This document shows, piece after piece, positions 2-18,501 of a stretch of DNA of 64,000 nucleotides. Numbering within the stretch: position 1 is the stretch's first letter; each line of letters begins with the position of its first letter. The notes beneath the pieces were generated by a model. It was not told the DNA's origin. It did no database searches and saw only the letters and a program-made list of their open reading frames with translations. Origin of the DNA: an uncultured Thermoleophilia bacterium. Its GTDB lineage: Bacteria > Actinomycetota > Thermoleophilia > UBA2241. Location: the NCBI GenBank assembly GCA_963702475.1, contig CAVPCT010000003.1, forward strand, positions 640,001-704,000. The letters run 5' to 3'. The position numbers and the translations under genes are program-made.

Positions 2-193
2 GTCGACGAGGCACTCACCGACTACGAGCCCGGCGCCCGTGAGTGGTGTGCTACGCTCATCGTCTCCGCGGCGAGCGCCGCCGAGGCGCGTGCAGCCGCC
101 GACACCGCGGCGCGCGAGCTCGCGCGTAGCCAGGGTCTCGAGCTCCTGCCCGAGAACGACCAGACCGTCCTTCCCCAGGAGGCGCGGACATGA
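2..193 (+). CDS. pylC: Pyrrolysine biosynthesis ligase PylC, 3' end (partial, runs off window)
   Basis: Frame 2 reads VDEALTDYEPGAREWCATLIV..., resembling the bacterial PylC C-terminus; its TGA overlaps the pylD ATG (ATGA 190-193). Confidence 0.75.
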   Translation, partial: VDEALTDYEPGAREWCATLIVSAASAAEARAAADTAARELARSQGLELLPENDQTVLPQEART

Positions 194-996
194 CCAGGCT
201 CACCGAGGACGACGTCCGCACCCTCACCGAAGACCTCACCGCGTTCGAGTCCGGTCTGCTCGAGGTCGCAGGCTTGGACCTGCGCACCCTCGCGCTGGCC
301 ACCGTGGCCGACCCCCCGGTCTGCGTACCGTTGCACGGCGCCCGCATCGCCGCGGTGCCAGTGACGTCGGGTGAGGGGGTCATCTCCGGCTTCACGGAGT
401 GCGTGGCGGTCATCCTGCGCCATCTCGGCTGCGAGGCGTGGGTGACCGGCCAGCCGGACGTGCGCGGCATCCAGCAGGCCGTTACCAGCCGCGCCGAGGT
501 CGTGTTCCTCGCCGACGACCACCGCTTCATCGCCCTCGACCTGCGCAACGGCCGCTGTGTCGACGACGACCCTGCCACGGCGGACGGCTACGTCACAGCC
601 CTCGAGGCCGCCGCCGGAGGGCTGTTCGGCAAACCCGTGCTCCTGCTCGGACTGGGCCCAGTGGGCCGCGCCGCCGCGCGTCGCCTCGTGCGCAGAGGGG
701 CGAAGGTCGAGGTCGTCGAGCCCAACAGCGAGCGCCTGCAGGCCGCCCTCGACATCGGCCTGCACGTCAGGCCCACCACCCTCGACGAGGGCCTGGCGCG
801 CTGTGACCTGGTCTTCGACGCCACACCGGCTCTCGACATCATCGACATCGCCGACGTGACCGAACGCACCATCGCCGCCGTGCCGGGTATCCCATCCGGG
901 TTCACGGCCGCAGCGCGCGCGGCCATGGGCCGTCGGCACATCCACGAGCCGCTGGCCGTAGGCGTCGCCGTCATGGCGGCTCGGGCGCTCGCCTAG
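190..996 (+). CDS. pylD: Pyrrolysine synthase PylD (3-methylornithyl-N6-lysine dehydrogenase)
   Basis: MTRLT start, VPVTSGEGVISGF, FLADDHRFIA, Rossmann GLGPVG, HEPLAVGVAVM; adjacent to tRNA-Pyl; ends in TAG. Confidence 0.93.
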   Translation: MTRLTEDDVRTLTEDLTAFESGLLEVAGLDLRTLALATVADPPVCVPLHGARIAAVPVTSGEGVISGFTECVAVILRHLGCEAWVTGQPDVRGIQQAVTSRAEVVFLADDHRFIALDLRNGRCVDDDPATADGYVTALEAAAGGLFGKPVLLLGLGPVGRAAARRLVRRGAKVEVVEPNSERLQAALDIGLHVRPTTLDEGLARCDLVFDATPALDIIDIADVTERTIAAVPGIPSGFTAAARAAMGRRHIHEPLAVGVAVMAARALA

Positions 997-1045
997 ACGT
1001 CACATCGACGGGCGCCGGCGATGTCGTAGTACAATCCGGGTGCGC

Positions 1046-1118
1046 GGGGGGTCGATCGCAAGGATCAGCGTGGACTCTAAATCCACGTAGGCGGGTGTGA
1101 CTCCCGCACTCCCCGCCA
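1046..1118 (+). tRNA. pylT: tRNA-Pyl, anticodon CUA
   Basis: Cloverleaf: acceptor GGGGGGT/ACTCCCC, G discriminator, CCA; 1-nt linker; D-stem GATC/GATC with 5-nt loop; 6-bp anticodon stem CGTGGA/TCCACG; loop CTCTAAA with CTA at 1077-1079; 3-nt variable loop; T-stem GCGGG/CCCGC lacking TTC. Confidence 0.97.
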
Positions 1119-1169
1119 GTCTTTCTCTTCTCCGGCTTCTCCCCCCGCGTTGCGGCGGCGCTCCCCGCG

Positions 1170-2105
1170 TCAGGGCGCGAACGTGACCGGGATGCGCACC
1201 TCGTCCTGGCGGGAGCCGTCCTCCATCGACTGGGCGTAGACGATCAGGGTGCCGCGGGTAGCCGAGGTTGTGAACTGCACGGTCTTGCTGAAGTCGCCGC
1301 GCTCCGGCCCCCCGGCCGACGCCTGCACGGGCGTCCTCACGAGCTGCGAACCGCCGGCGTCCTCGAGCTCCGCCATGAACGAGCCCTCGAACACCATGGC
1401 CGTCCCCTCGAGGGCGAACGGGCTGCCGAGCACGGCGCCGACGCCCGGTCGTTCGACGAAGATCGCGGGCTCGAAGTCCCGCCAGTCGGCGCGCTTCTGG
1501 CTGGAGTCCAGCATGAGGCCCTCGCCTCCGAGCTCCGTGAGAGGCTCGCCGTCGATGCGGAAGTCCACCGCCTTCACAGTGGGGTACTGTGTCAGTGTGT
1601 AGACCACCTGCGCCACGCGGGCCTGCATCGCCAGCGAGCCTCCTCCTGAGGCGAACTCGCCTGACAGGTCGACGATGGCGACGCCCCCCTTGATGGTGAG
1701 GCCGAGGAGCCGAGTGCCGGCCGGCACGGCGGAGCTGAGGCCGGCCCCCTGGTCCTCCGCGTTCGGACCCAGGCACAGCGCCGACATCGCGGCGGTGGCG
1801 ACTGCCTCACTGCGCGGCGCCGGCCGCTCGGCCACGCCGAGCTTCTCGCCGCGCAGGAAGTAGACGCGCACGACCATCTCGTCCGCCGCCGCTGTCGCCG
1901 ACTCGCCGGGGGAGGGGGCCGTGGTGGCCGTGACCTGCGTCGGCGCTCCGGGCGAGGCGCTCTCACCGGCGCCCCCGTCCGACACGCCGCAGCCGGCCGC
2001 GAGGGCGGCGCCGAGCGCCACGGCCGCGAGCAGCGCGAGCGCGGCGGCCACGGACCGGCGGCGCTCGCGCCGGCCCTGGGTGCGGAAGCTGCAGAAGGCG
2101 GTCAT
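1170..2105 (-). CDS. Lipoprotein with GerMN and Gmad2 Ig-like domains
   Basis: Lipobox LAAGC; VDLSGEFASGGGS...AQVVYTLTQ GerMN motif; GTAMVFEG Ig-like C-terminal domain. Confidence 0.8.
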   Translation of the reverse strand: MTAFCSFRTQGRRERRRSVAAALALLAAVALGAALAAGCGVSDGGAGESASPGAPTQVTATTAPSPGESATAAADEMVVRVYFLRGEKLGVAERPAPRSEAVATAAMSALCLGPNAEDQGAGLSSAVPAGTRLLGLTIKGGVAIVDLSGEFASGGGSLAMQARVAQVVYTLTQYPTVKAVDFRIDGEPLTELGGEGLMLDSSQKRADWRDFEPAIFVERPGVGAVLGSPFALEGTAMVFEGSFMAELEDAGGSQLVRTPVQASAGGPERGDFSKTVQFTTSATRGTLIVYAQSMEDGSRQDEVRIPVTFAP

Positions 2106-2169
2106 GGGCACCTCACCCGATAGACGGAGTCCTTCCCTTCGGGACGCGCCAGCCTCCTCCTGCGCTCGG

Positions 2170-2178
2170 TGGTACACT
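2170..2178 (+). promoter_or_regulatory. Extended -10 element (TGGTACACT) for pylSn, near-leaderless transcript
   Basis: TG-n-TACACT 10 nt upstream of the ATG; no Shine-Dalgarno sequence. Confidence 0.45.
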
Positions 2179-2188
2179 TCACGTCCCC

Positions 2189-2515
2189 ATGCCGACCGAT
2201 CCCAACAAAGCGCGCTACTACCGCAAGCAGATCCCGCTTTTCAGGCTGCTTGAGAAGATGAAGCTGTGGCCCTCGCGGCGCGGCATCCTGCACGGCATCC
2301 GCGAGATCACCCTGCGCGGCGAGTACGCCATCATCGTGACCCACTGCGGCAAACACATGGTGGTGCGCGATTCCAAGACGAGCCGCGCCGCGCGATGGCT
2401 GCGCAACAAGTGGTACGCCGAGGCGTGTCCCAAGTGCCGCATCCCGGAGTGGAAGCTCCAGAAGTACGCCTCCACGCACTTCAATCGGGGCTACGGCTCT
2501 CACCTGAGGGACTGA
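2189..2515 (+). CDS. pylSn: Pyrrolysyl-tRNA synthetase N-terminal subunit PylSn
   Basis: KLWPSRRGILHGI, THCG, SRAARWLRNKW, CPKCRIPEWKL motifs. Confidence 0.96.
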   Translation: MPTDPNKARYYRKQIPLFRLLEKMKLWPSRRGILHGIREITLRGEYAIIVTHCGKHMVVRDSKTSRAARWLRNKWYAEACPKCRIPEWKLQKYASTHFNRGYGSHLRD

Positions 2516-2573
2516 ACGACGAAGGGGGCTCAGCGAGCGGTGCGTCGCAGGCGCGCCCGTCGATAGGCTCCGG

Positions 2574-3453
2574 CTACAGCAGCCGCCAGCTCTCCGGCCG
2601 CAGCCGCATCGATTCCGGAGCAGTGAGCACCCTGTCCAGCGTGGCCAGCATGGCCGCCTTTTCCTGCGGCAGGCGCCCTCCCACGGGCAGATAGTTGGAC
2701 GCGTGGTTGCTTCGGAAGAGGCAGTCGGTGACCTCAGTGGCCGCGACGATCTCGCGCAGTTCGCGGAGCATGCCGAGCGAGTCCGGCAGCACCACCTCGC
2801 CGCGCGCCACCTTGCGCTCCATGGCGGTGCCCGGCGTGAGCATGAGCGTGAGGATGCCGATGTACCGCGGGTCGATGGCCGAGAGAGCCACGCCCGTGGC
2901 TCGCGCGTGCACGAGCGAGCGCTCTGCGCCGGCGAGGCCGAGGATGGCCGTGACGGACAGGGCGATGCCGGCCGTCGAGGCCCGCACGCAGCCCTCGATC
3001 TGTTCGCTCACCGTCATGCCCTTGTGGATGTGGGCCAGGGTCTGGTCGTCGCCCGACTCGAGGCCCAGGTAGATGAGCTCGAGGCCGTTCGCGCGGAGTG
3101 TCACCAGGTCCTCGGACGCTCTTCGCCAGCAGGTTGCGGGCGTTGGCGTAGGTGCTCACGCGCTCCAGGTTCGGCAGAGCCCGGTGCAGCAGATCCAGGA
3201 TGTCGTGCAGTTTGTGCGGGCTCAGTGCCATGGCGTCGCCGTCGGCCAGAAAGACCCGGTCCACACGGTTGCGCACCGTGGAGGGGAGACCCAGGACGTC
3301 GTCGACCACCTCGTCGAACGGTCGCACGGCGAACGGCTTCTCCAGATAGGTGCCGCAGAAGTCGCAGGTGTTGTTGGAGCAGCCGTACGTGACCTGCACG
3401 ATAAGACTGCTGGCCTCGCTGGGGGGGCGGATGACGGCGCCGTGGTACCTCAC
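2574..3453 (-). CDS. Radical SAM protein with a +1 frameshift near 3114 (probably a sequencing error)
   Basis: VIRPPSEA..GCSNNTCDFC (CxxxCxxC); joins the YLGLESG...FRSNHASNY frame if one C is removed from AGCGTCCGAG. Confidence 0.8.
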
Positions 3454-3651: not shown

Positions 3652-4284
3652 ATGGCCACCATCTACGAAGAAGCAGCCCAGACCATCGTCGACGCCGACC
3701 GCGCCGCCGCCGAGGAGGTCGCGAAGCGCGCCCTCGGGCAGGGCCTCGCGCCCGCCGACATCATGCAGAACGGCTTCGTCAAGGGTATCCAGGAGGTCGG
3801 CGAGCTCTTCGAGAGCGGCGAGGTCTTCCTCCCCGAGCTGATGATGAGCGCCGACGCCATGGCCGGGGCCACCGAGGTCACCAACGCCGCCCTGGAGGGC
3901 GAGGCCGCCGCGGCCAAGGGCGTGATCGTGATCGGCACCGTGCAGGGCGACGTGCACGACATCGGCAAGGCCATCGTCATCGCCTACCTGAAGGCCAACG
4001 GCTACGAGGTCCACGACCTCGGCCGCGACGTGCCCGCCGACGCCTTCCTCACCAAGGCCGCCGAGGTCGGCGCGAACGTGATCGGCATGAGCGCCCTGCT
4101 CACCACCACGATGGAGGAGCAGAAGAAGGTCATCAAGCGCGTGCGCGAGGAGGGCCTCGCCTACAAGTGCGTCGTCGGCGGCGCCCCCGCGACGCAGCGC
4201 TGGGCCGACCAGATCGGCGCCGACGCCTACGCCGAGGACGCCTCCGACGGCGTCAAGAAGATCGACGAGCTGCTCGGCGTCTGA
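3652..4284 (+). CDS. Methyltransferase cognate corrinoid protein (MtbC/MttC family)
   Basis: FLPEL helical cap, GDVHDIGK B12-binding motif, SALLTTT, GGAP; SD AAGGAG. Confidence 0.93.
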   Translation: MATIYEEAAQTIVDADRAAAEEVAKRALGQGLAPADIMQNGFVKGIQEVGELFESGEVFLPELMMSADAMAGATEVTNAALEGEAAAAKGVIVIGTVQGDVHDIGKAIVIAYLKANGYEVHDLGRDVPADAFLTKAAEVGANVIGMSALLTTTMEEQKKVIKRVREEGLAYKCVVGGAPATQRWADQIGADAYAEDASDGVKKIDELLGV

Positions 4285-4311
4285 GCGTCCCGGGAAGCCC
4301 CTGAGGGGCCG
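4256..4311 (+). repeat. Left copy of degenerate 56-bp direct repeat (corrinoid gene 3' end plus downstream DNA)
   Basis: Matches 17482-17537 at 50 of 56 positions by manual alignment. Confidence 0.85.
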
Positions 4312-4320
4312 CAGAAGCGC

Positions 4321-4358
4321 GCGACGAAGGGCGGGCCGGGAGGGCCGCCCTTCGTCGC
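4321..4358 (+). terminator. GC-rich hairpin after the corrinoid gene
   Basis: GCGACGAAGGGCGG / CCGCCCTTCGTCGC, a 14-bp perfect inverted repeat. Confidence 0.65.
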
Positions 4359-4389
4359 GTACGCCATTCGTGCTGTGTACCATCGGCGC

Positions 4390-4569
4390 GTGAACGAGTG
4401 GGACGACCGGTTCGACTACTACCGTGACAGCCCGACCCATGCGCTCGGCGCCGACCTCGACCAAGTCGTGGCCTGGTGCGAGTCGGGACCCGGTGTGGCA
4501 GCGCTGGACGTGGCCTGCGGCGGCGCCCTCCTTGGACATGCGGCCGATGCGCGCCGGCGTGCTCCCTGA
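4390..4569 (+). pseudogene. Truncated class I SAM-dependent methyltransferase
   Basis: SPTHALGADL...ALDVACGG motif I, then homology is lost next to the IS110 remnant. Confidence 0.6.
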
Positions 4570-4632
4570 CGGGCACTCCTGAGGATTGAGGCGAAAGTAG
4601 CCGACCGGCCGGCGCGCCGCGGCAAAGCGGCG

Positions 4633-5120
4633 CTAATCACGTTGACGCCGGAGACTGTCACCAGGCGGTGGGATCTCAGGTGAGTCCAGGGCTGCGCGGG
4701 CGCTGTCCCTCTCGAGAATACCGAGCTGGCCAGCGAGGAAGTCGAGCACGCGCAGACAGGCGTCTACCGTCTCGCGCTTGTCGCCGGGCAGCTCGAGGCC
4801 CGTGAGCCAGCAGCGCCCGTCCGCGCCGAACGGATCGCTCACTGGCGGGGCGCCCTTCAGGTTGTGGCAAAGGGTGGCGGAGATCTCGTTCTTGAGGCAC
4901 GTGCGCTGGCGGCGTAGGTTACGGGTCTTCTCGCCCGGCAGCAGGGCGCCTTGCAGCATGCCGGCCGCCAGCAGCTTCGCCAAGGCGCGCATCGAGGCGG
5001 TCGGTCTTCGCGTTGGCGACGGCGAAAGCGTGCGGCTCGCGCGCACCGGCCACTGCCACTCGTCTGACGTGAGGCGCGAGAATGCGCGCGATGGCGAGGG
5101 CGTTGCCGTTGGTCTCCTGG
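4633..5120 (-). mobile_element. IS110-family transposase remnant (frameshifted)
   Basis: ETNGNALAIARIL...AKTDRLDAR/ALAKLLAAG, RQRTCLKNEI, GRCWL..LELP. Confidence 0.75.
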
Positions 5121-5128
5121 AAATCGTT

Positions 5129-5445
5129 TCACAATGACGCTCGCAGTCGCCGGAAGCAGATCAGGCAGCAAGCCAGTTCGAGGAAGGCCTCGTGTACGTC
5201 GGCGCGCCGCTCCTAGCGCACGAGCAGGCGGCGGAAGCCGTGCAGCCAGGCGATGGTGCGCTCGACGACCCAGCGCTGGGCACCGAGACCGGAGCCGCGA
5301 GAGGTGCCGCGCCGCGCGATTTGCGGGGTGATGCCGCGCGCTCGCAGCCTGCGGCGGTAGGCTTCGTGGTCGTAGCCGCGGTCGGCGAGCAGACGCCGGG
5401 GGCGCAGCGCAGCCGGGGCCGCACCCCTACCGCCGCCGGTGATGG
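5129..5445 (-). mobile_element. IS5-family transposase 3' remnant
   Basis: LADRGYDHEAYRRRLRARGITPQIARRG..GSGLGAQRWVVERTIAWLHGFRRLLVR*ERRADVHEAFLELACCLIC; TAG at 5213-5215 where these transposases usually have an aromatic residue. Confidence 0.85.
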
Positions 5446-6026
5446 CGGGCCGGCCCAGACACTGAGTCGAGCCCGGTGCTTTCTCTTATGGGTGAGGTTG
5501 GGGGCGATGCGCTGGCAATCGGCCTTCAGAGGTCCGGGCATTGGCGGGCGCGACCCTGTACGCAGTGCGCGACGCGAGGGTAGCCCAGGTGAGAAGCTGT
5601 CGAGCTTGCAACTTGGTGCACGCGCTCTGTAAGCATCCTCGTCTCACCCTCGGCCAAGATCCCGATCTCCGCCTGCTCGGCCGCCTCGCGGCTCTTCGGG
5701 ATGTGGAGACTGCCTCCCGGGGTGAATGTCCATCTCTCGGCCACAGATCCCACGCCCTTGACGCTCACAACTCCATGCGATTGGTGCACAGCAGCCGTCA
5801 ACTCGTGGAAGCATCGGTAGTCTGGGGCCAAGGGCGCGCAGGCACCTGGTGAACGTGGCCAGGACGATGATGAGAGACGGGGCCGACAATGGCTGCGCCG
5901 GCAGCGGAGCGACCCCTTGCGTCTCGCCGAGAGCTCTGTATGATGCCGGCATAACCGAACGGTTGGTTACGCGCCGGCGTGGTCGGCAGGCCCCAGACCG
6001 CCCGCGCAGACAGCACAGGAGGATGT

Positions 6027-7253
6027 ATGCGAGTAGCTATTCTCGGAGCCGGCGCGCAGGGGTTCGTACTCACGTGGTACTTCGCTGCCTGCGCCGATGT
6101 GGACAGCATCGTCGTCGGCGACAACGAGCCGGAGCGGGCGCGGCAGGTCGTCGATCGCTGGGGTGCAGGCAAGTCAGAGGCCGTCATCGTCGACGCCACC
6201 GACATCGACGCCGTGGCACGCTTCGCTGCCGGCGCCGACATCCTTATCAACGCCGTGCTGCCGGAATGGGACGTTTCCTGCATGCAGGCGGCGCTGCAGG
6301 CCGGCGCACACTACATCGACATGGCCACGCGCAGGCCGGGCGGCACCGTCGACGACGGCTACATGGACCAGATGGACCTCGACGAGGCCTTCCGCTCGGC
6401 TGGTCTCACGGCTCTCATCACCACCGGCATGACACCCGGCGTCACCAACACTCTGGCGGCTATCGGCTACGAGGAAATGGACCGTTGCGAGGCTGTGCAC
6501 GTGCGCGCCACCTCCAACTTCCAGTCGGAGAAGCCCATACAGGTCTGGTCGCAGGAGACATGGTACATCGACTGCCAGACACCATGTCTCTACTTCTCAG
6601 AGGGCACCTTCCACCGCGCCGCGCCCTTCGGCGGACGCGAGTACTTCGACTTCCCGAGGCCGTACGGTCGCCGGCCCGTCACCTTCCACGAACACGAGGA
6701 AGCCACCACGCTGCCACGCTGGTTGCCCAGATTGGGCGAGAAGGGGCTGCAGTGCGTCGACTTCAAGATGGGTGCGAGCGACGCCGGCCTGGATGCGCTG
6801 AAGGCCGTCGTCGATAGCGGCATGGCCAGCCCGGAGCCGCGACAGGTGAAGGGTGTCACCGTGAGGCCCCTCGACGTGCTGGTCAGTAACCTGCCGCCCA
6901 GCCCGTCTCCCGACGAAGTGGCGGAGATGGCTCGGGCCGGCAAGATCGTGGACGAGGGTGTGTACGTCATCGACCTGCACGCAGAGCTCGACGACCCGCC
7001 CACCGAGTCGTTCTACGTCTACCCGCCGAGTATCCAGGAGCTCACCGAGATGTGCCCGGGCGCCAATCGCGTCAGCTATGGCACCTCGGTGCCCTGCGCC
7101 GCCTACGCCCGGTTCATCCTGGACGGCGTCATCGATACCCGTGGCGTCGTGCCGCCCGAAGGCCTGCCGCGCGAGGTGCGTCTGGCCTACGTGAAGGAGC
7201 TCGAGCACCGGGGTCTGCGCTTTGAGCGGCGCTCGCTCCGGTCGGTCTACTGA
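6027..7253 (+). CDS. Saccharopine dehydrogenase-like NAD(P)-dependent amine oxidoreductase
   Basis: GAGAQG Rossmann motif, HYIDMA, GMTPGVTN, HEE, GVVPPE; SD AGGAGG. Confidence 0.85.
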   Translation: MRVAILGAGAQGFVLTWYFAACADVDSIVVGDNEPERARQVVDRWGAGKSEAVIVDATDIDAVARFAAGADILINAVLPEWDVSCMQAALQAGAHYIDMATRRPGGTVDDGYMDQMDLDEAFRSAGLTALITTGMTPGVTNTLAAIGYEEMDRCEAVHVRATSNFQSEKPIQVWSQETWYIDCQTPCLYFSEGTFHRAAPFGGREYFDFPRPYGRRPVTFHEHEEATTLPRWLPRLGEKGLQCVDFKMGASDAGLDALKAVVDSGMASPEPRQVKGVTVRPLDVLVSNLPPSPSPDEVAEMARAGKIVDEGVYVIDLHAELDDPPTESFYVYPPSIQELTEMCPGANRVSYGTSVPCAAYARFILDGVIDTRGVVPPEGLPREVRLAYVKELEHRGLRFERRSLRSVY

Positions 7254-7327
7254 GACCGCTCCGAGGAGCGGTCGGCCCTCTGACCGACGCAACGATTCCG
7301 ACTGTGTAGCCGAAAGAAAGGAAGAAC

Positions 7328-8821: not shown

Positions 8822-8861
8822 GGCCGGACCACCGAGTATGGAGCAAGGAGACGGGGGACTC

Positions 8862-10145: not shown

Positions 10146-10230
10146 TCGCCAGGTTCTCGAGGCCACGGTCGAGCGGGTCCGATCCCCGCTCGACCAGCCC
10201 ATCGAAAGGGCCCATGGGGGCGGTGACGCT

Positions 10231-10941: not shown

Positions 10942-11666
10942 GCATGCTCGAAGTCGAGAGCCTCAACGTCAGCTACGGTGATATCCAGGTCATTCGCGAC
11001 ATCAACCTCACGGCAGAAGAGGGCCAACTGACGGCCATCTTCGGACCGAACGGGCACGGCAAGACCACGCTGCTGAAGACCATCTGCGGTCTGGTGACCC
11101 CGACGTCAGGCACCGTGCGCGTCGACGGCGAGGAGTTCCAGGGTCGCCCGTCGGACCAGCATGTTGATCGAGGCATTGTCCTTGTTGCCGAGGAACGCCA
11201 CCTCTTTTCGGAGATGACCGTGATGGAGAATCTCCAGCTTGGTGCGTTCTCGCGTGCCGCTCGCGCCGCCGAGGATGCCAATCTCACCCGCGTGTTCGAC
11301 ATGTTCCCAAAACTGGCCGATCTGCGTCGGCGGGAGGCCGCGACACTCAGCGGCGGAGAAGCGCGGATGCTCGCCATCGGAAGAGGGCTCATGTCGTGCC
11401 CGCGACTGTTCGCGGTCGACGAGCCGTCATTCGGGCTCGTTCCGAAGTTGCGCCACGTGGTCTTCGACTCCCTGCGCCAGTTGGCAGATGGCGGCTTGAC
11501 CGTGCTCGTCGTCGAGCAGTCGACGGCGCGGATCTCGGAACTCGCGGACCAGGTGTATCTGATCGAAGACGGGGCAGTCGTGTTTGGTGGCGATACAGCA
11601 GCGGCGCTGCAGAACGAAGAATTCAAGCGCGTCTACCTCGGCCAGGGGCCGGGAGGTGAGGAGTGA
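10938..11666 (+). CDS. Liv-type ABC transporter ATPase (LivF-like)
   Basis: GPNGHGKTT, LSGGE, VDEPSFGL, VEQ. Confidence 0.92.
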   Translation: MSMLEVESLNVSYGDIQVIRDINLTAEEGQLTAIFGPNGHGKTTLLKTICGLVTPTSGTVRVDGEEFQGRPSDQHVDRGIVLVAEERHLFSEMTVMENLQLGAFSRAARAAEDANLTRVFDMFPKLADLRRREAATLSGGEARMLAIGRGLMSCPRLFAVDEPSFGLVPKLRHVVFDSLRQLADGGLTVLVVEQSTARISELADQVYLIEDGAVVFGGDTAAALQNEEFKRVYLGQGPGGEE

Positions 11667-12547
11667 GCTGGCGATCCCTTGGTGACGTGTTGATCAGCGG
11701 TCTGACCATCGGCAGCGTGTACTACCTGATGGCTCTCGGATTCACGCTCGTATACGGCGTTGGCCGCGTGCTCAATCTGGCCTACGGGTCCTTCTTCGTG
11801 TGGGGAGCCTACGTGTGCTGGGTGTTCACGGTCGGCGTCGCCACCTTGCCCATAGTCGTGGGCGGCCTTATTGCAGTCCCCCTGCTCTTCTTGCTTGGCG
11901 TGGCCGTTGACCGGGGTGTGGTGAATCCGCTGCGGAAACGGCCGGAGTTCGACTTCAGCGTCCTCCTGGCGACCCTGGGCCTTGCCATGGTTCTGGACAA
12001 TCTGGCGCTCGTCATCTTCGGACCGCGGCCAAAGGCGCTGCCTGATTTCGGCAGCTGGAGCCTGGAGGTCGGAGGCTTCGTGCTCAGCGCGCAAGCACTC
12101 ATCATCATTGCGTTCGCCGGCGCCTTTGCCTTCGCACTGACGCTGTTTCTGCAGCGCACCAAGACGGGCATGAGCATCCGCGCGGTCGCCCAGGATCCGA
12201 CAGGGGCGCGCATGGTCGGCATTCGGCTCAACCACGTGTACGCCCTGACGTTCGGTCTGTCGGTCGCCTTGGCCGCTGCCGGAGGGATTCTCCTGGCGCA
12301 GCGGTTCTTCATCACGCCACTGGGCGGCTGGACCATTCTCATCAAGGCTCTCATCATTGCTGTAGCTGGAGGCATGGGGAGCCTGAAGGGGACCCTGGTG
12401 GCCGCCTTCGCTCTGGGCATGCTCGAAGCGTTCGTGGGCTGGCAGGCGGGGCTTCTGTGGGTGATGCCCTTCTGGTTCGGAGTCCTTCTCGCGATCCTGC
12501 TCACAAGGCCTCACGGACTGTTCGGGGCAGCGGGGAGGCGGGTGTGA
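11663..12547 (+). CDS. Liv-type ABC permease (LivH-like)
   Basis: ALGFTLVYGV..LNLAYG, IRAVAQD, GGMGS, RPHGLFG. Confidence 0.92.
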   Translation: MSWRSLGDVLISGLTIGSVYYLMALGFTLVYGVGRVLNLAYGSFFVWGAYVCWVFTVGVATLPIVVGGLIAVPLLFLLGVAVDRGVVNPLRKRPEFDFSVLLATLGLAMVLDNLALVIFGPRPKALPDFGSWSLEVGGFVLSAQALIIIAFAGAFAFALTLFLQRTKTGMSIRAVAQDPTGARMVGIRLNHVYALTFGLSVALAAAGGILLAQRFFITPLGGWTILIKALIIAVAGGMGSLKGTLVAAFALGMLEAFVGWQAGLLWVMPFWFGVLLAILLTRPHGLFGAAGRRV

Positions 12548-13551
12548 TACGCAGGCGCGCATACGTGCTCGCTGGTTGCATCGTTGCCATTCTGGCCGTG
12601 CTGCCGCTGATAGTGGGCAACGACTCGTACATGATGAGACTCCTTCTGATCAGCATGTTGTGGGGCGGACTGGCCCTGTCGTGGGATCTGCAGCTCGGGT
12701 ATGCAGGGATCTTCAACTTGGGCCAGATCGGCTTCTTCGTGTGTGGTGCGTACGCGTCTGCGATGCTGACCATGTACGTCGATATCTCCCCGTGGCTCGG
12801 CTTGGTTGTAGGGGCGGCGGTCGGCGGTCTCATCGCAGCTGCCATCGGCGTGGCGTGCCTTCGCCTGACGGGTATCTACATCGCTCTGCTCACGCTGGCT
12901 TTCTTTGAGGTGCTTGGCCCCCTGCTCACCCTGGGGAAGCCGTGGGGGACCGGGGGGAAGGCTGGGCTCCTGCCCATACCGCCTTTGAGTTGGGGCGGTC
13001 AGCCATTCTCGGTCTATGACCCGCTGCCGTGGTACTACTGTGCCCTTGGACTCCTCGTGGTCTGCATGGTCGTGGTGGTATGGGTCGTCAGGTCGCGACT
13101 GGGCCGTGGATTCATCGCCCTGCGCGACTCCGAGTCGCTGGCACAAGCCCTGGGAGTCGACCGCTTTCGCTCCTCGCTGGCGGTAGTAGGCATATCCGGC
13201 GCGCTGGCGGGGATGATGGGAGCTTTCTACGCCAGCTACCAGGGAGTCCTCTCGCCACGCCTGCTCGGACTCGACCTGTTCCTCTTCCTGATCATTGCGA
13301 TCCTCGCAGGCGGCGTGGGCAAGTTCCCAGGGGCAGTTCTGGGAGCGATAGCGGTGACGTTCGTCACGGACAGTCTGCGCCCCACCGGGACCTACCGTCT
13401 CTTGATCCTCGGGGGGCTCGTCGTCGTTCTGGTGCTGTTCCTTCCTGCCGGTGCGATGGGCGGTCTGGATTCGGTGATCCTGCGCATCAAGCGCTGGCGA
13501 AGAGGAGGCGTACAACCCCCGGTCGTGGATGTCGATCCGAAGGAGCCATGA
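12544..13551 (+). CDS. Liv-type ABC permease (LivM-like)
   Basis: LGYAGIFNLGQ, LRLTGIYIALLTL, ALRDSE..AQALG. Confidence 0.92.
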   Translation: MIRRRAYVLAGCIVAILAVLPLIVGNDSYMMRLLLISMLWGGLALSWDLQLGYAGIFNLGQIGFFVCGAYASAMLTMYVDISPWLGLVVGAAVGGLIAAAIGVACLRLTGIYIALLTLAFFEVLGPLLTLGKPWGTGGKAGLLPIPPLSWGGQPFSVYDPLPWYYCALGLLVVCMVVVVWVVRSRLGRGFIALRDSESLAQALGVDRFRSSLAVVGISGALAGMMGAFYASYQGVLSPRLLGLDLFLFLIIAILAGGVGKFPGAVLGAIAVTFVTDSLRPTGTYRLLILGGLVVVLVLFLPAGAMGGLDSVILRIKRWRRGGVQPPVVDVDPKEP

Positions 13552-13734
13552 TGGCGCGGAGCGTACTGAGGCACGTGCGGCCCGCGCATCTGGGTGTCAT
13601 CTCATCCGCTCACGGCGACCGGTCGATACCGCGATGAGTCCGGAGCGTTTCACTCCCCGGCGTGAGCCTTGAACTGCCAGGGTCGGCGGGGAGTCTCGCC
13701 ATGGAGCAAATGTAGCCTTGGGGTGTGACGAGCG

Positions 13735-14688
13735 ATGCTCACCGTCACCCTTGGTCTGACGGCGGCGTTCTGCTACGCCCTCGTCGACCTTCTGATGGTG
13801 CGAGTCGTGCGCACGGTGCCCGTGGCATTGGCGTTGGTGTGGCTGGTCGGTGTCGGCGCGCTCATCAGTGTGCCGCTGGCGCTCTTCGTGGACGGGGTCC
13901 CGAGTGGCAGCGCGGAGTGGCGCGGGGTCGGCATCGCGGCCATCGGCGGAGTCACGTACATGGCCGCGTTGGGGGCGATGTTCCGCGGGCTGGCGGTAGG
14001 CCAGCTGTCCATCATGTCGCCGATCACCGCGCTTGAAGGCGCGTTCGCGGCGCTGGTGGCCATCGTGCTCGGCGAGCAGCTCGGCGGCCTGGCGGCCGTG
14101 GGTCTGCCGCTCGCCGTGATCGGCGCCGTTCTGGCGTCGATTGTGCGAGTGTCGGCCGAGCCGGCCGTCGCGATGACGTCTGCGGTCGAGGTCGCCCAAG
14201 CCGAAGGCGGCTCCTGCGGCGCGAACGCCGGCACCCGGGACGAGAAGGGCGGCCGTGCACCCGGTGCCTGGGAGGCCGCCCGCGGCGCCGGCTGGGCGTT
14301 ACTGGCGGCCACGGCGGGCGGAACCACCATTCTCATCTACGGGTGGGCCGCCGACCTGCCGCCGTTCTCGGCTGTGGCCATGTCCCGCCTGGTGAGCTTC
14401 CTCATTGTGCTTGCCTACGCGGCCACGCATCAGGGCCTGGCTCTGCCGCGGGTGTGGCGCCCGCGGGTCGTTTTCGCAGGCTGTGTCGAACTGGCAGCGT
14501 TCGTGGCGCTGGCGGCCTCCACCGCACGTGGCCCCGTGTCGGTGGCCGCGGTGACGACCGCTCAGTTCGCCACGTTTGGCGTCATTCTGGGAGTTCTGAT
14601 ACTGCACGAACGCCCGCTCCTACAGCAGCGTGTGGGCATCCTCGCCACCCTGGTGGCCGTGACGCTGCTCGCCCTCTCGGAGGTATAG
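13735..14688 (+). CDS. EamA/DMT family transporter
   Basis: Two hydrophobic repeats with LGEQL and LHERP signatures; ends in TAG. Confidence 0.8.
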   Translation: MLTVTLGLTAAFCYALVDLLMVRVVRTVPVALALVWLVGVGALISVPLALFVDGVPSGSAEWRGVGIAAIGGVTYMAALGAMFRGLAVGQLSIMSPITALEGAFAALVAIVLGEQLGGLAAVGLPLAVIGAVLASIVRVSAEPAVAMTSAVEVAQAEGGSCGANAGTRDEKGGRAPGAWEAARGAGWALLAATAGGTTILIYGWAADLPPFSAVAMSRLVSFLIVLAYAATHQGLALPRVWRPRVVFAGCVELAAFVALAASTARGPVSVAAVTTAQFATFGVILGVLILHERPLLQQRVGILATLVAVTLLALSEV

Positions 14689-14743
14689 GCCGCCCGGGAG
14701 AGGCCCCGGGGCGGCAGACAAGTCAACCACTGGAGAACTCTCT

Positions 14744-15439
14744 ATGTGCGCCGCAATCGACAAGAACCGGACAGCAGTGCTGGATTCCGAAGCGGGAGCG
14801 GTCCGGCACGCGCCGTTCGAGGATCCATCCCTCACCCTGCCTGAGCCTGCCAACGAGATCGTGCAGGCGGCGCGCCGCCTGCTGCTGCTCGGCGGTTGGG
14901 AGGCCCTGCGCGTCGACGCCATCGTTCGCGAGGCTGGCAGGAACAAGGCCTCGGTGAAGTACTACTTTGGCAATAAGCAGGGCCTCATCACCGCCCTCAT
15001 CGACTCGCTTGACCACGAGCAGTGCCTCGCCTTGGCCGAGCGCACCGCCGCAGCCGACGGGGAAGAGCGCCTCAGCCGCTACATCATCGGACAGACCGAG
15101 CTTGCCAGCGACGCCGAAGCGTTTCTCCTGTTCTTCGATGTCCTGCCGCACGTGATTCGCGACGAAGAGCTGCGCAGGCGAGTAGCGCCACTCTATGAGT
15201 GGTACCGGCATATGAACATGGTGTGGCTGGGCCTCACCGACAGGGTCACCGACGAGAACCGGGACCGCCTCAGGGCGTTCGTCGCACTGATGGTCGCGGT
15301 GGTGGACGGGCTGGCCATCCAGGCGTCGCTGCAGCCGGAGGATTTCGACGTGGCCGCCTCTTTTGACATCCTTGAGATCTTCCTCAAACGCTGCCTTGAC
15401 GAGGTGGTCACGGGAACTGCTGATGGCGCCGCAAGTTGA
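14744..15439 (+). CDS. TetR family transcriptional regulator
   Basis: IVQAARRLL..GWEALRVDAIVREAG..KASVKYYFGNKQGL helix-turn-helix. Confidence 0.9.
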   Translation: MCAAIDKNRTAVLDSEAGAVRHAPFEDPSLTLPEPANEIVQAARRLLLLGGWEALRVDAIVREAGRNKASVKYYFGNKQGLITALIDSLDHEQCLALAERTAAADGEERLSRYIIGQTELASDAEAFLLFFDVLPHVIRDEELRRRVAPLYEWYRHMNMVWLGLTDRVTDENRDRLRAFVALMVAVVDGLAIQASLQPEDFDVAASFDILEIFLKRCLDEVVTGTADGAAS

Positions 15440-15474
15440 CGTGACGCCTGAAGACGGTCTACTCGCGGGCCATG

Positions 15475-15560
15475 GTCCTGGATTGAGAAGGAGGAGGTCA
15501 GTCATGCCCAGAAGCGCTACCGCACCGAGGAGCTCTTCGCCAAGCTGGGCGAGGCCGAGC
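15475..15560 (+). mobile_element. IS3-family (IS407-like) orfA 5' remnant
   Basis: SD AAGGAGGAGG, ATG at 15504, then frameshifted KRYRTEELFAKLGEAE resembling an IS407-group OrfA N-terminus. Confidence 0.55.
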
Positions 15561-15686
15561 GGTCGGGATTGTCGCCTCATGCGGTCGCGCCCGCCGACAC
15601 GGACGGGGCGACGAAGAGGATGGCCACCGTGCATCTCAATGAATCCCCTCTGTGGGTCTAGCGCCCCGCGCATGAGCAGACGCGGC

Positions 15687-15941
15687 CAGTCCCAGCCCAA
15701 GCTGATCGACCGCCGCGTGCTGGAGGAGTGGGCTGCCGCCGGCAGCACGGACCTCCACCAGCGCGCGCAGGAGGAGGCGCGTCGCATCCTCGCGACGCAC
15801 GCCCCGGAACCGCTGCCGGACGCCGTGGCGCGCGAGATTCGCGGCATCGTCGACGCGGCCGACCACGAGGCGGCGTCGACGATGAACAGGCGGCGCCAGA
15901 GGGCACCGAGGAGCCTCGCCACGCCCTGCCGTGCGCGCTGA
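15687..15941 (+). pseudogene. mttB: 3' remnant of a trimethylamine methyltransferase MttB-family gene
   Basis: QSQPKLIDRR..EEWAAAGSTDL..RAQEEARRILATHAPEPLP resembles the MttB C-terminus; the 5' part is missing. Confidence 0.75.
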
Positions 15942-15976
15942 CCCAGCAAGGTAAGCCACCCAGGGAGAATCCGAAG

Positions 15977-17365
15977 ATGGAGAACAGCTACCCGACGCGT
16001 GACGGCGACGGATCGCTCGTGCGCATGACTCGCGGCCAGCTTCACTCAGAGCTGGAGGAGGGGACGCAGGCGGCGGCAGCGCGCGCCAAGGTCCCGCCCC
16101 TGACGACGGACGAGCTGGACCACCTGCTCGACATCTGGGCGTCTCCGGCTCGCTTCTCGTCCGTCGACATCGGTGACGAGGTCGTGCTCACGTACGACGG
16201 GTCGGGCTCGAAGACGGTCGGCACGCGCACGCAGGACCTGCTCATCTACGAGCAGATGATGGGCGCCGACTCCGTGGAGCTCGCGCACGTCGACTACTCG
16301 TTCAAGGCCGTCAAGACCATCCTTCCGCACGAAGCGCAGAACATGAAGGACGCCCAGCTCGTCCTGACGGCGCCGATGATGTACGGGGCGATGCCCAACC
16401 TGGGGCTGTACTCCCAGCCGGATGGGCCCGTGCCCAACTGGTCGGAGCTCCTGCCGATGACGAAGATCGCCGAGGCGCGTGCCGCCCAGGAAGAGGCGAT
16501 CGAGCACGCCGTCAAAGACATGGTCGCGGTCGCCGACGCTATGTGGGAGGCGGGCGCCGACGGGATCGACTTCGACACCGCCGGCGCCGCCGGCGACGGC
16601 GACCTCCTGGCGACGCTTCGCGCGGTCGAGAAGATTCGCGCAAAGCATCCCGACATGGGCATCGAGGTCGGCATGGCCGGCGAGTTCGTCCTCGGCGTGC
16701 ACGGTCAGCTCGAGTACGACGGCGTGCGCCTGGCCGGGCTCTGGCCTCGCGCCCAGATGGAGCTCGTGCGCCGGGCGGGCGCGACGATCTTCGGCCCCGC
16801 GGTCAACGTGAACACGCGCAAGTCGGGCGCCTGGAACATCGCCCGGGCGCTCACCCTGGTCAAGCCGTGCATGGATGTCGCCGAGATCCCCGTGCACATG
16901 AACGTCGGCATGGGCGTCGGCGGCGTCCCGATGAGTAGCTACCTGCCGCTGGACGCCGTGTCCCGAGCATCCCGTGCCTGCGTCGACATCCTGCGGCTGG
17001 ACGGTCTGTAGGTCGGCACGGGTGATCCTCTGGGCATGCCTTGTGCCCACGCGATCGCCTCGGGGATGTGCGGCATGCGCGCTGCTGGAGATCTGGTGGC
17101 GCGCATGCAGATCACTCGGGGGATGCGGATACATGAGGCCAAGGCCTACGTGGCCGAGCGGCTGGGGGTCGGTCCGTCCGACCTCTCCGACCCGCTCGCG
17201 ATGGCGGACGTGCGTAGGCACCATCAGCTGGGACGCATCACGACGTTCGAGATGAGCTACGCGAGCGAAAGTAGCGCGATGGAGTCGAAGTTCCGGATTG
17301 CCGAGCTGCTCGACCTCCCGATCAACTGCGTGCAGCGCTTCAGGCGGCACGCCGGGCTCGCGTGA
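15977..17365 (+). CDS. mtbB: Pyrrolysine-containing dimethylamine:corrinoid methyltransferase MtbB-like (462 aa, Pyl345 from TAG 17009-17011)
   Basis: RDGDG, HVDYSFK, YGAMPNLGLYSQPDGP, FDTAGAAGDGD, GMGVGG, then DGL-TAG-VGTGDPLGM..RAAGDLVARMQ, colinear with methanogen MtbB across the stop. Confidence 0.95.
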
Positions 17366-17481
17366 GCCCGGACGACCGGGGACCGGGAACGATCTGCTGA
17401 AAGGGATCGGCGTGCATACAGGCGCCGCGCGACCGCGGCTACTGAGAGCGGGATGTGGTATAGGCAGGAGGTGGAGACTCG

Positions 17482-17537
17482 AGAAGATCAACGAGCTGCT
17501 CGGCGTCTGAGCGGCCCGGCAGGCCCGTAAGGGGCCG
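17482..17537 (+). repeat. Right copy of the 56-bp direct repeat; orphan corrinoid gene tail (KINELLGV*)
   Basis: 50 of 56 identical to 4256-4311. Confidence 0.85.
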
Positions 17538-17643
17538 GCCGCCCGCCCGGCCTGTCAGATGCAGAGCGGCGCTCCTGCGGCGCTCCGCTCAAGACCCCCA
17601 CTCGCGCCGCTCGGCCGGGCTGCGCCGCCCTTGACGCGCTGCG

Positions 17644-18501
17644 TCAGATATTGAGGCGGACGCCGTCGAAGTACGACAGGCTACGGCCGGCGCGCTCGAT
17701 GTTGGGAAAGCCCTCGCGGACCATGATGAGCCTCTCCAGGCCGAAGCCCAGGCCCACCCACGGGTCCATGACGCCCCAGTTGCCGTCCAGTGGGTGCGGG
17801 CCCATGCCGGCCGAGCACACCTCGATGCCGCCGACCTCGACGTCGATCATCTGGCCGTACACCTCGGACTCGGTCCTGACCAGGTCGTACGTCTTCACGC
17901 CGGCGGCGTCCATGACCACGGCCGCGAGCTCCGTCATCCGCTCGCGGCATCTCTCCTCCGGCGTGCCGAGTTCGACCAGGTTCAGCATGGTGAACTCGTT
18001 GAGGTGGCTGGACCCCTTGCTGTCACGGCGAAAGCACGGCCCGATCTCGTAGATGCCGAACGGACGGCCCCACATACGACCCAGGCGCCTCAGCATGGTG
18101 TACAGGTTGGGCGCCAGCATGGGTCGCAGGCAGCGGCCGTCCTCGAGCCAGAAGACCTGCTCGCGCAGGGGGTGACCGTGCTCGATGCCCATTCTCGTCA
18201 GCGATTCGGCGGCGATGATGAGCGGCGTGACCATGGGCACGAACCCGGCGGCGCCGAGTGCTTCGCGCAGCGCCGCCTCCAGCTCGAGCAAGCGAGGCGC
18301 CACTGCGCCCCCCTTCAGGTCTTTCAGGTGGCGCCGCCCGGCGCGCACGAGCTTGTCCTCGGCGGCGCGGAACGCGGTGTCGCGCTCCCCGGCGTCCGCG
18401 AAGGTGGCGTCGGCCAGCTGACTTGCACCGCCGAGCTCGCGCAGGCGCTGCACCTGGGTCGCCGAGAGGCGCACGCCTCCCGAGTCTGTCTGTTCACTCA
18501 C
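17644..18501 (-). CDS. pylSc: Pyrrolysyl-tRNA synthetase catalytic subunit PylSc
   Basis: QRLRELG, CLRPMLAPNLY, HLNEFTMLNLVE, VYG, PWVGLGFGLERL, RSLSYFDGVRLNI. Confidence 0.97.
   Translation of the reverse strand: MSEQTDSGGVRLSATQVQRLRELGGASQLADATFADAGERDTAFRAAEDKLVRAGRRHLKDLKGGAVAPRLLELEAALREALGAAGFVPMVTPLIIAAESLTRMGIEHGHPLREQVFWLEDGRCLRPMLAPNLYTMLRRLGRMWGRPFGIYEIGPCFRRDSKGSSHLNEFTMLNLVELGTPEERCRERMTELAAVVMDAAGVKTYDLVRTESEVYGQMIDVEVGGIEVCSAGMGPHPLDGNWGVMDPWVGLGFGLERLIMVREGFPNIERAGRSLSYFDGVRLNI

What the first reader, a model, noticed from the sequence alone, without database searches (positions are those of the whole stretch)
2..18501. Pyrrolysine (22nd amino acid) system in a high-GC, apparently actinobacterial genome
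Seen: pylC (3' end), pylD, tRNA-Pyl(CUA), pylSn, pylSc, an amber-containing MtbB and a corrinoid protein within 18.5 kb. Known: Pyl systems are best characterised in methanogenic archaea and some Firmicutes and Deltaproteobacteria. Inferred: the host looks like Actinomycetota, which would be an uncommon Pyl host running anaerobic methylamine demethylation. The pyl genes look ameliorated to the host's high GC. pylB is expected just left of the window.
Basis: partly seen in the sequence, partly recalled or inferred. Interest (0 to 1): 0.9.

Follow-up and report, generated by a model that had tools for sequence, protein, structure and literature searches.

The report
Family-wide pyrrolysine system in Thermoleophilia
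This uncultured actinobacterium has the complete machinery to read UAG as the rare 22nd amino acid pyrrolysine, as does nearly its whole family; the trait was already noted briefly for this group, but its fixed chromosomal position and the large set of enzymes that use it seem undescribed.

Summary
Confirmed. All five protein models pass their curated cut-offs. The host belongs to Thermoleophilia family UBA2241 (Actinomycetota). The system is ancestral, not a recent import: PylSc in 58 of 62 other family genomes (9 genera), one clade, fixed synteny next to core genes, with pylSc coupled to a cell-wall amidase gene. Correction: the mtbB sits in a 13-kb lineage-specific insert, not in the conserved locus. 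This genome has 26 amber methyltransferase loci (15 MttB, 10 MtbB, 1 MtmB; 5 frameshifted), 47 non-amber MttB-family loci, Sec machinery and CODH/ACS. TAG still ends about 14% of genes (relatives 19-39%), so the genome is not recoded. Prior art: two Actinobacteria with PylRS (PMC9630628), and expressed Pyl-type mttB/mtbB in Actinobacteriota, naming a UBA2241 genus as an active methylotroph (PMC10805028). This scan found the trait before on other genomes. Verdict: new member of a known kind; the family-wide fixation and paralogue expansion are the new part.

The parts
2..193 (+). 3' end of pylC (415 aa; starts at G000:C3:638946). pylB (359 aa, G000:C3:637870-638949) lies directly upstream, outside the window
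   Evidence: TIGR03909 323.8 > 248.3; TIGR03910 438.3 > 348.2
190..996 (+). pylD, 268 aa; overlaps the pylC stop; itself ends in TAG (not conserved: 4 TAG, 12 TGA in 16 relatives' loci)
   Evidence: TIGR03911 209.6 > 150.05; PF21455; stops
1046..1118 (+). pylT, tRNA-Pyl(CUA), 73 nt: one base between acceptor and D stem, 5-nt D loop, long anticodon stem, 3-nt variable loop, G73, encoded CCA
   Evidence: ARAGORN; fold; near-identical genes with compensatory changes in relatives
1170..2111 (-). GerMN/Gmad2 lipoprotein-like gene; conserved passenger between pylT and pylSn
   Evidence: PF10646, PF10648; synteny
2189..2515 (+). pylSn, stand-alone N-terminal tRNA-binding part of PylRS, 108 aa
   Evidence: TIGR03912 126.5 > 51.15
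2574..3453 (-). Radical SAM gene, conserved in the locus, function not assigned; 1-nt frameshift near 3114 is most likely an assembly error
   Evidence: contigs of three runs lack one base at 3114
3652..4284 (+). Methyltransferase-cognate corrinoid protein, 210 aa, conserved beside pylSc in relatives; very high codon score; 99.85% identical copy on contig C2 beside an amber mtbB
   Evidence: TIGR02370 220.2 > 215.3
4312..17478 (.). Lineage-specific insert between two 59-nt direct repeats (4253-4311 and 17479-17537, 88% alike; corrinoid 3' end plus hairpin): truncated ORF (4390-4569), IS remnant, saccharopine-dehydrogenase-like gene, aldehyde dehydrogenase, branched-chain-type ABC transporter, EamA, TetR, mttB 3' remnant, mtbB. 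Exact left border uncertain (4312 or about 4570)
   Evidence: repeat; Pfam; no such block in 25 relatives' loci; genes at 6.1-15.4 kb in the lowest 0-7% of GC3
15977..17365 (+). mtbB-family methyltransferase, 462 aa, in-frame TAG at 17009-17011 (codon 345) at the family's Pyl site
   Evidence: TIGR02368 470.2 > 369.1; PF09505 on both sides of the TAG; Rfam PYLIS_2 75.5 > 36 at 17009-17108
17644..18501 (-). pylSc, catalytic PylRS, 285 aa; its GTG start overlaps the amidase stop (GTGA)
   Evidence: TIGR02367 314.3 > 178.15; best solved relative PDB 3DSQ/2ZNI, E 3e-92; junction
18498..19583 (-). N-acetylmuramoyl-L-alanine amidase with peptidoglycan-binding domains; directly upstream of pylSc in every family locus examined
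   Evidence: PF01520, PF01471

Best explanation
A complete, working bacterial-type (PylSn + PylSc, 'class S') pyrrolysine system that entered the ancestor of Thermoleophilia family UBA2241, was rearranged into a fixed chromosomal locus and has been inherited vertically since. Steps: (1) PylB, PylC and PylD make Pyl from two lysines (genes shown; chemistry from established knowledge). (2) PylSc with PylSn charges tRNA-Pyl(CUA) (genes, tRNA shape and pocket residues shown; activity inferred). (3) Pyl-tRNA competes with an intact RF1 at UAG, so UAG is ambiguous: Pyl in about 26 methyltransferases, stop in about 500 other genes (counts shown; competition inferred). (4) MtbB-, MttB- and MtmB-type enzymes use Pyl to move an N-methyl group from amines to corrinoid proteins, which RACo-type activases keep reduced (genes shown; chemistry by homology). 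(5) A pterin-binding methyltransferase passes the methyl group to tetrahydrofolate, and the Wood-Ljungdahl enzymes oxidise it or turn it into acetyl-CoA (genes largely shown; flux inferred). MtbB-type enzymes are the likely reason the family keeps Pyl. Coupling of pylSc to a cell-wall amidase gene suggests housekeeping-type expression of the synthetase (inferred).
For: All models pass cut-offs. Family counts without G000, genomes at least 80% complete: PylSc 58 of 62, PylD 57 of 62, MtbB 60 of 62, MttB family 61 of 62. pylB 47 of 53 in the genus. The two near-complete reduced genomes without MtbB (G032, G071) also lack pylB, pylD, pylSc and pylT; G097 keeps pylSc, pylD, pylT and one MtbB but no MttB match. 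All 150 MtbB rows listed in each carry exactly one TAG (259 and 261 rows unlisted). The TAG aligns with the Pyl position of the solved MtmB (1TV2) and MttB (7XCL/7XCM) structures; the catalytic Tyr364 equivalent is kept in 15 of 15 amber MttBs. Family PylSc forms one clade, 100/98. Synteny from AOR to gltX. tRNA stems show compensatory changes. CODH, ACS, AcsC, AcsD and Fhs pass cut-offs; RACo at three loci. PMC10805028 reports expression of Pyl-type mttB/mtbB by Actinobacteriota MAGs.
Against: No proteomic or biochemical proof of Pyl in any member. ACS was found in only 37 of 63 family genomes and not in some near-complete Pyl-positive ones (G002, G083, G195), so step 5 is not universal. AcsE-like (239 < 259), FolD and FchA-like proteins fall below their cut-offs; MetF was not tested. 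5 of the 26 amber loci are frameshifted; real pseudogenes and assembly errors were not told apart. G004 (93% complete) has three amber MtbBs but no pyl gene was found. The genome is 6.5% contaminated by marker estimate. Operon coupling is read from sequence only.
Confidence: 0.88

Rival explanations
1. Same machinery, but most amber paralogues no longer act on mono-, di- or trimethylamine: they demethylate other N-methylated secondary or tertiary amines. This changes step 4 only.
For: 15 amber MttBs have median 48% pairwise identity and 10 amber MtbBs 45%. The Gly110 equivalent, fully conserved among Pyl-MttBs in PMC9842639, is Gly in only 8 of 14 (Ala 3, Asp 2, Leu 1); Thr111 is Glu in 13 of 14. 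Neighbours include amino-acid permeases, a choline/ethanolamine kinase, cyclodeaminases and, in the window, a saccharopine-dehydrogenase-like/aldehyde dehydrogenase/ABC set.
Against: Tyr364 is kept in 15 of 15 and Met249 in 14 of 15. The one paralogue tested passes the trimethylamine equivalog cut-off (619 > 525). Methanogens also keep paralogues for one substrate under different regulation (recalled). The Gly110 column rests on one pairwise anchor to 7XCL.
Confidence: 0.35
2. This genome is moving towards a full TAG = Pyl code (archaeal 'code 34' type), which would be a first in bacteria.
For: TAG ends 545 of 3,871 called genes (14%) against 19-39% in samples of 14 relatives. In paired orthologues the relative more often has TAG in 14 of 14 comparisons, 5 of them at p < 0.05. 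5-15% is the range given for 'in transition' archaea.
Against: Pyl-positive relatives with 8-11 MtbB matches are not depleted (21-36%) relative to the two Pyl-less ones (23%, 26%). RF1 keeps PVT and GGQ. Two screens found no convincing read-through gene outside the methyltransferases. No excess of nearby back-up stops after TAG. pylSc itself ends in TAG in 23 of 44 loci.
Confidence: 0.07
3. The machinery is a decaying relic and the amber genes are pseudogenes.
For: Frameshifts in 5 of 26 amber loci and in the radical SAM gene; IS remnants inside the locus.
Against: All five pyl protein genes are intact. The TAG is at one column in every copy, and the frame stays open for 106-172 codons after it. 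The radical SAM frameshift is absent from contigs of three runs.
Confidence: 0.03
4. The contig is chimeric or misbinned, or the pyl genes are a recent island from a Firmicute or Deltaproteobacterium.
For: Marker contamination 6.49%. Two of 25 close PylSc loci carry non-actinobacterial titles (L026, L035).
Against: The window lies on a 1.14-Mb contig with gltX, cysS and rho. The same order recurs in independent genomes. L026 and L035 share the Thermoleophilia gene order and nest inside the family clade, so they are more likely mislabelled or misbinned contigs. Named outside PylSc clusters are about 50% identical. Codon use is host-like.
Confidence: 0.02

Closest known systems
Bacterial class S pyrrolysine system (PylSn + PylSc; PDB 3DSQ/2ZNI, recalled as Desulfitobacterium hafniense PylSc; Acetohalobium arabaticum, Eubacterium limosum)
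   Same: Split PylRS, pylBCD, short tRNA-Pyl, amber MtbB/MttB, UAG still a stop elsewhere. PylSc E 3e-92 to 3DSQ; 49-50% identical to clusters holding A. arabaticum, E. limosum and Desulfovibrio proteins.
   Different: Not one operon: pylBCD-pylT, a lone pylSn and a convergent pylSc coupled to an amidase gene. Fixed across a whole family rather than patchy. Far more amber enzymes.
Actinobacterial PylRS entries in PMC9630628 (Actinobacteria bacterium ADurb.BinA094, OPZ42170.1; Thermoleophilia bacterium, MBE0528218.1)
   Same: Same class for at least one entry; by eye the two supplement sequences resemble this PylSc, and the listed pocket residues match. Not aligned by tool.
   Different: Table entries only; in the passages read, no locus, distribution or target proteins are given.
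Methylotrophic Actinobacteriota of Stordalen Mire (PMC10805028)
   Same: Reports Actinobacteriota MAGs expressing Pyl-encoding mttB and mtbB, and names Bog-752 among the most active methylotroph genera; its supplement files Bog-752 under f__UBA2241.
   Different: Pyl inferred from gene truncation; 'pylB' has no hit in the supplements as held; the text does not say which MAGs expressed the Pyl genes.
Dual Sec + Pyl Deltaproteobacteria (Olavius delta-1 symbiont, PMC1976440; benthic Deltaproteobacteria, PMC8318568)
   Same: Both code expansions, several amber methyltransferases, Wood-Ljungdahl genes.
   Different: Eight Pyl methyltransferases in delta-1 and up to five TMA methyltransferase copies per genome, against 26 loci here; other phylum.
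Archaeal genetic code 34 (bioRxiv 10.1101/2024.09.30.615893)
   Same: Pyl machinery; TAG share in the 'transition' range in this one genome.
   Different: TAG remains a stop here; no Pyl protein outside the methyltransferases was found.

Membership tests
Bacterial class S pyrrolysine system | pylB, pylC and pylD present and intact | tested here: met
   438.3 > 348.2, 323.8 > 248.3, 209.6 > 150.05
Bacterial class S pyrrolysine system | PylSc and PylSn on separate genes | tested here: met
   TIGR02367 314.3 and TIGR03912 126.5; 15 kb apart on opposite strands
Bacterial class S pyrrolysine system | PylSc amino-acid pocket of the Pyl type | tested here: met
   Motifs PMLAPNLY, FTMLNLVE, SEVYG, SAGMGP, DPWVG align without gaps to 3DSQ and fit the residue table of PMC9630628
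Bacterial class S pyrrolysine system | tRNA with CUA anticodon and tRNA-Pyl shape | tested here: met
Bacterial class S pyrrolysine system | Target genes with TAG at the known Pyl column | tested here: met
   MtmB and MttB against solved structures; MtbB against PF09505/TIGR02368; census
Bacterial class S pyrrolysine system | Pyl is made and inserted in vivo | not testable with these tools
   needs proteomics or reporter assays
Bacterial class S pyrrolysine system | Compact single-strand pyl operon (usual layout, not strictly defining) | tested here: not met
   Split layout in the family; the compact pylT-pylSn-pylSc-pylB-pylC order is seen in family f4 instead
Genetic code 34 (all TAG = Pyl) | TAG never serves as stop | tested here: not met
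   545 of 3,871 called genes end in TAG; RF1 motifs intact
Genetic code 34 (all TAG = Pyl) | Many non-methyltransferase genes with homology across a TAG | tested here: inconclusive
   None convincing, but the reference set was small (own proteome, 14 genome samples of 120-200 kb, PylSc homologues) and missed the known MtbB/MtmB cases
Dual Sec + Pyl expansion | selA, tRNA-Sec and in-frame UGA selenoproteins beside the Pyl system | tested here: met
   selA 521.8 > 267.9, tRNA-Sec, SelD-like and peroxiredoxin-like in-frame TGA (names recalled from motifs); selA in 55 of 63 family genomes; selB not tested
Methylotrophic acetogen (methyltransferases + Wood-Ljungdahl) | CODH/ACS, AcsC/D/E, Fhs, FolD, MetF | tested here: inconclusive
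   CODH, ACS, AcsC, AcsD and Fhs met; AcsE-like, FolD and FchA-like below cut-off; MetF not tested; ACS in 37 of 63 family genomes
Methylamine-specific Pyl methyltransferases | Substrate is MMA, DMA or TMA | not testable with these tools
   Tyr364 kept 15/15, Gly110 kept 8/14

The most novel reading that the evidence does not exclude
Family UBA2241 is an actinobacterial lineage built around pyrrolysine. It fixed the 22-amino-acid code ancestrally, wired the synthetase into a housekeeping operon, and radiated its Pyl enzymes (26 loci in this genome) into a panel that demethylates N-methylated amines beyond mono-, di- and trimethylamine. Pyl chemistry would then be far broader than known, and these bacteria would be generalist anaerobic competitors of methylotrophic methanogens in wet soils and sediments.
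Probability: 0.3. Interest if true: 0.78.

Novelty: new member of a known kind. Interest (0 to 1): 0.48.

Why it matters
A family of at least 63 species-level genomes in which almost all members carry both Pyl and Sec is a large natural comparison set, with losses (G032, G071), minimal users (G097) and heavy users (G000). It bears on two open questions. First, how does a bacterium tolerate an ambiguous UAG when 14-39% of its genes end in TAG? Second, do Pyl enzymes act on more than the three simple methylamines? The 15 + 10 divergent amber paralogues can be expressed and assayed directly. The PylSc clade is only about 50% identical to the next clusters, so it may also supply another synthetase/tRNA pair for code expansion. 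Ecologically, these bacteria could divert methylamines from methanogens.

Tried and rejected
(1) Sec at the Pyl site of MttB: the two full-length '1 TGA' hits are end effects. (2) TAG depletion tracking the number of amber genes across the genus: suggested, rejected (Pyl-rich relatives 21-36%). (3) Amber autoregulation through pyl gene stops: not conserved (pylD 4 TAG/12 TGA, pylSc 23 TAG/19 TGA/2 TAA); no pylB match had an internal stop. (4) Non-methyltransferase Pyl proteins: a corrinoid gene at C9:221698 is also truncated by a frameshift; a repeat surface protein at C5:891682 has Trp in the three sister repeats; the rest are tandem genes or antisense frames. (5) Transfer to Zixibacteria or Deltaproteobacteria: synteny favours misbinning; not proven. 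(6) Two independent gains in Thermoleophilia (f1, f4): different layout and tRNA sequence and separate clades, but the AU test does not reject one clade (p = 0.104); left open, and no donor can be named. (7) Expression: no RNA holder listed; contigs cannot show expression. (8) The Rfam PYLIS_2 hit was not taken as evidence of a recoding signal; it lies in conserved coding sequence and the papers read doubt the element. (9) Promoter scan of 900-4700 found nothing above shuffles. (10) The careful tree of 61 rows did not finish; one search is a quick tree, a careful tree of 28 rows without the mixture model. (11) No structure or complex prediction was run.
Full report
OBSERVATION. The window is G000:C3:640001-704000 of a 4.31-Mb, 9-contig, 70% GC genome, 93.8% complete and 6.5% contaminated. 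pylC ends at 193 and pylB lies directly upstream; both pass. The tRNA folds with one base between acceptor and D stem, a 5-nt D loop, a long anticodon stem, G73 and an encoded CCA (these hallmarks are recalled). Relatives' copies differ by compensatory changes in the acceptor and anticodon stems. PylSc aligns without gaps to PDB 3DSQ (E 3e-92).

HOST. 23 of 25 PylSc loci from GTDB genomes are titled Thermoleophilia, Actinomycetota or Actinomycetes. Window GltX is 71%, 68% and 67% identical to GltX in three of them, 49% in the Zixibacteria-titled genome, and had no match in the fifth genome searched. G083, ranked 'same family', has a PylSc identical to that of the record titled 'Thermoleophilia bacterium UBA2241'. 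The family is therefore UBA2241, filed as its own order in the supplement of PMC10805028. The genus name was not determined.

DISTRIBUTION. In a draw of 400 class genomes at least 80% complete, PylSc was found in 58 of 62 of the family (9 genera), 7 of 47 of family f4, and 0 of 291 others. In a phylum-wide draw it was in 2 of 401, G000 and one f4 genome. In the family: PylD 57 of 62, MtbB 60 of 62, MttB family 61 of 62, amber-type MtmB 10 of 62, selA 54 of 62, ACS 36 of 62. pylB is in 47 of 53 other genus members of any completeness. The two genomes without MtbB are reduced and lack pylB, pylD, pylSc and pylT. G004 has amber MtbBs but no pyl match, most simply a gap in the bin. Kin are not independent, so these are descriptions, not tests.

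LOCUS. Relatives share the order AOR - nitroreductase - pylB - pylC - pylD - pylT - GerMN(-) - pylSn - radical SAM(-) - corrinoid - pylSc(-) - amidase(-) - OsmC - HTH - TldD - PmbA - pyrE - decarboxylase - gltX (pyrE named by eye). The amidase is directly upstream of pylSc in 25 of 25 loci. Its stop overlaps the estimated pylSc start as in the window in 25 of 38 loci scored (some genomes may be counted twice). The corrinoid gene lies within 1.1 kb of pylSc in 19 of 25 loci; 3 were too short and 3 differ; none has an mtbB between the two. In the window the gap is 13.4 kb, bounded by a 59-nt direct repeat at 88% identity. It holds an IS remnant, genes in the lowest 0-7% of GC3, an mttB remnant and the mtbB. 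So the mtbB is a local arrival. Contigs of 2.1-6.8 depth with 0-15 differences cover pieces of both the conserved locus and the insert, and three runs lack the extra base that breaks the radical SAM gene. The pyl genes have host-like GC3 and codon scores.

ORIGIN. Family PylSc sequences from seven genera form one clade (100/98), as do those of f4 (98/98, 28 rows, LG+G4). The contigs titled Zixibacteria and Deltaproteobacteria nest inside the family clade (quick tree). The next 50%-identity clusters are 48-51% identical and include E. limosum, Desulfovibrio and A. arabaticum proteins. f4 has a compact pylT-pylSn-pylSc-pylB-pylC layout and another tRNA type, which suggests a separate gain, but the AU test does not reject a joint clade (p = 0.104). 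No donor can be named.

TARGETS. The genome holds 62 MttB-family loci (15 amber), 10 amber MtbB loci plus one fragment, and 5 MtmB loci (1 amber): 26 amber loci. Five are frameshifted (2 MttB, 3 MtbB). The TAG falls on the Pyl position of solved MtmB and MttB. The paralogues are old (median identity 48% and 45%), so they are not strain contamination. Tyr364 is kept in 15 of 15 and Met249 in 14 of 15; Gly110 in 8 of 14, although PMC9842639 reports it fully conserved. A tblastn with the window's corrinoid protein gave 26 rows, about 24 loci. RACo is at three loci, and a pterin-binding methyltransferase candidate lies 6 kb from an mttB. CODH, ACS, AcsC, AcsD and Fhs pass cut-offs; AcsE-like, FolD-like and FchA-like proteins do not. 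selA and tRNA-Sec are present.

MEANING OF TAG. With my own gene caller (no Prodigal on the machine), TAG ends 545 of 3,871 genes. Samples of 120-200 kb from 14 relatives gave 19-39%. In paired orthologues the relative more often carried TAG in 14 of 14 comparisons, 5 at p < 0.05. The depletion is a trait of this genome's lineage: Pyl-rich relatives (21-36%) do not differ from the two Pyl-less ones (23%, 26%). RF1 keeps PVT and GGQ. A homology screen of 445 TAG-ended genes of G000 gave 20 hits, 15 of them MttB; the other five are tandem genes, weak matches, a broken corrinoid gene and one Trp-to-stop repeat. That screen missed MtbB and MtmB, so its sensitivity is limited. A coding-potential screen added nothing convincing. 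UAG is therefore best read as ambiguous.

MECHANISM. Shown: the genes, their integrity, the amber positions, the distribution and the gene order. From established knowledge: Pyl synthesis from lysine, tRNA charging, and Pyl-dependent methyl transfer to corrinoids. Inferred: competition with RF1, housekeeping expression of pylSc, methyl flow to tetrahydrofolate and the Wood-Ljungdahl pathway, and the substrates. Confidence in the whole is 0.88; the substrate range is the weakest step.

LITERATURE (what I saw). PMC9630628: one passage and two supplement rows; lists two Actinobacteria with PylRS, one a Thermoleophilia. PMC11764691: one passage repeating this. PMC10805028: passages, section 9 and supplement rows; two of its supplement files were cut when stored, so per-MAG Pyl calls may exist that I did not see. 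PMC7438021: passages on UBA2241 as possible methylotrophs. bioRxiv 10.1101/2024.09.30.615893 (supplements closed) and PMC12626013: passages on TAG use in archaea. PMC1976440: abstract and section 13. PMC8318568, PMC9842639, PMC7615293: passages; the 351-sequence table of the last was not read and may hold this clade. bioRxiv 10.64898/2026.09.14.751414: one passage, not relevant. Nine searches listed no paper describing the locus, the family-wide fixation or the expansion; the library lacks most subscription journals. This scan's notes hold at least eight similar findings on other genomes; they are unchecked and not counted as support.

VERDICT. New here are the near-universal ancestral fixation, the split layout with amidase-coupled pylSc, the dual Sec + Pyl code across the family, and an amber methyltransferase set about three times the largest bacterial count in the papers read. 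New member of a known kind; interest 0.48.

Noticed in passing
G000 genome-wide, densest on C4:1-235000: 62 MttB-family loci (15 amber, 47 not), about half of them on the first 235 kb of contig C4; 16-98 first-look candidates per genome in 59 of 62 relatives, 1-4 in the other three.
   Followed up: partly
G000:C2:42568, C4:65310, C5:571064, C9:248466: Four MtmB-family genes without an amber codon (65-92 orders of E-value, against 198 for the amber copy); a non-Pyl MtmB subfamily of unknown substrate.
   Followed up: no
window 3637-4311 and G000:C2:35971-36645: The corrinoid gene has a 675-nt copy at 99.85% identity on another contig, ending exactly where the direct repeat ends: recent duplication, gene conversion or assembly artefact.
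   Followed up: partly
L101, L192-L196 (family f4): A second Pyl system in another Thermoleophilia family (7 of 47 genomes): compact pylT-pylSn-pylSc-pylB-pylC order, different tRNA-Pyl sequence, PylSc about 50% identical.
   Followed up: partly
G032 and G071: Two reduced (1.7-1.8 Mb, 98% complete) genus members without pyl genes, MtbB or ACS but with selA; G071 ends 65 of 168 sampled genes in TAA.
   Followed up: partly
L001:8586-13276 (left of the window): Homocitrate synthase (TIGR02660 534 > 462.9) followed by aconitase-like and isocitrate/isopropylmalate dehydrogenase-like genes (named by eye), then AOR and a nitroreductase directly upstream of pylB; lysA is at window 45872-47191. Possible link to lysine supply, untested.
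   Followed up: no
L002:8389-11757: fhs, cyclohydrolase-like and folD-like genes about 27 kb upstream of pylB.
   Followed up: partly
G000:C4:37631 and C4:51645: Two amber mttB copies 14 kb apart in inverted orientation, 91% identical in DNA, with the same protein sequence over the stretch shown around the amber codon.
   Followed up: no
window 40186-40707: A second corrinoid protein gene (50% identical to the first), standing alone.
   Followed up: no
L184:15188-17606: Cytochrome bd oxidase genes beside a methyltransferase cluster, suggesting oxygen tolerance.
   Followed up: no
L187:4589-7447: Repeat surface protein with TAG in one repeat where three others have Trp.
   Followed up: partly
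L026 and L035: Contigs titled Deltaproteobacteria and Zixibacteria that carry the Thermoleophilia pyl neighbourhood; probably mislabelled or misbinned.
   Followed up: partly
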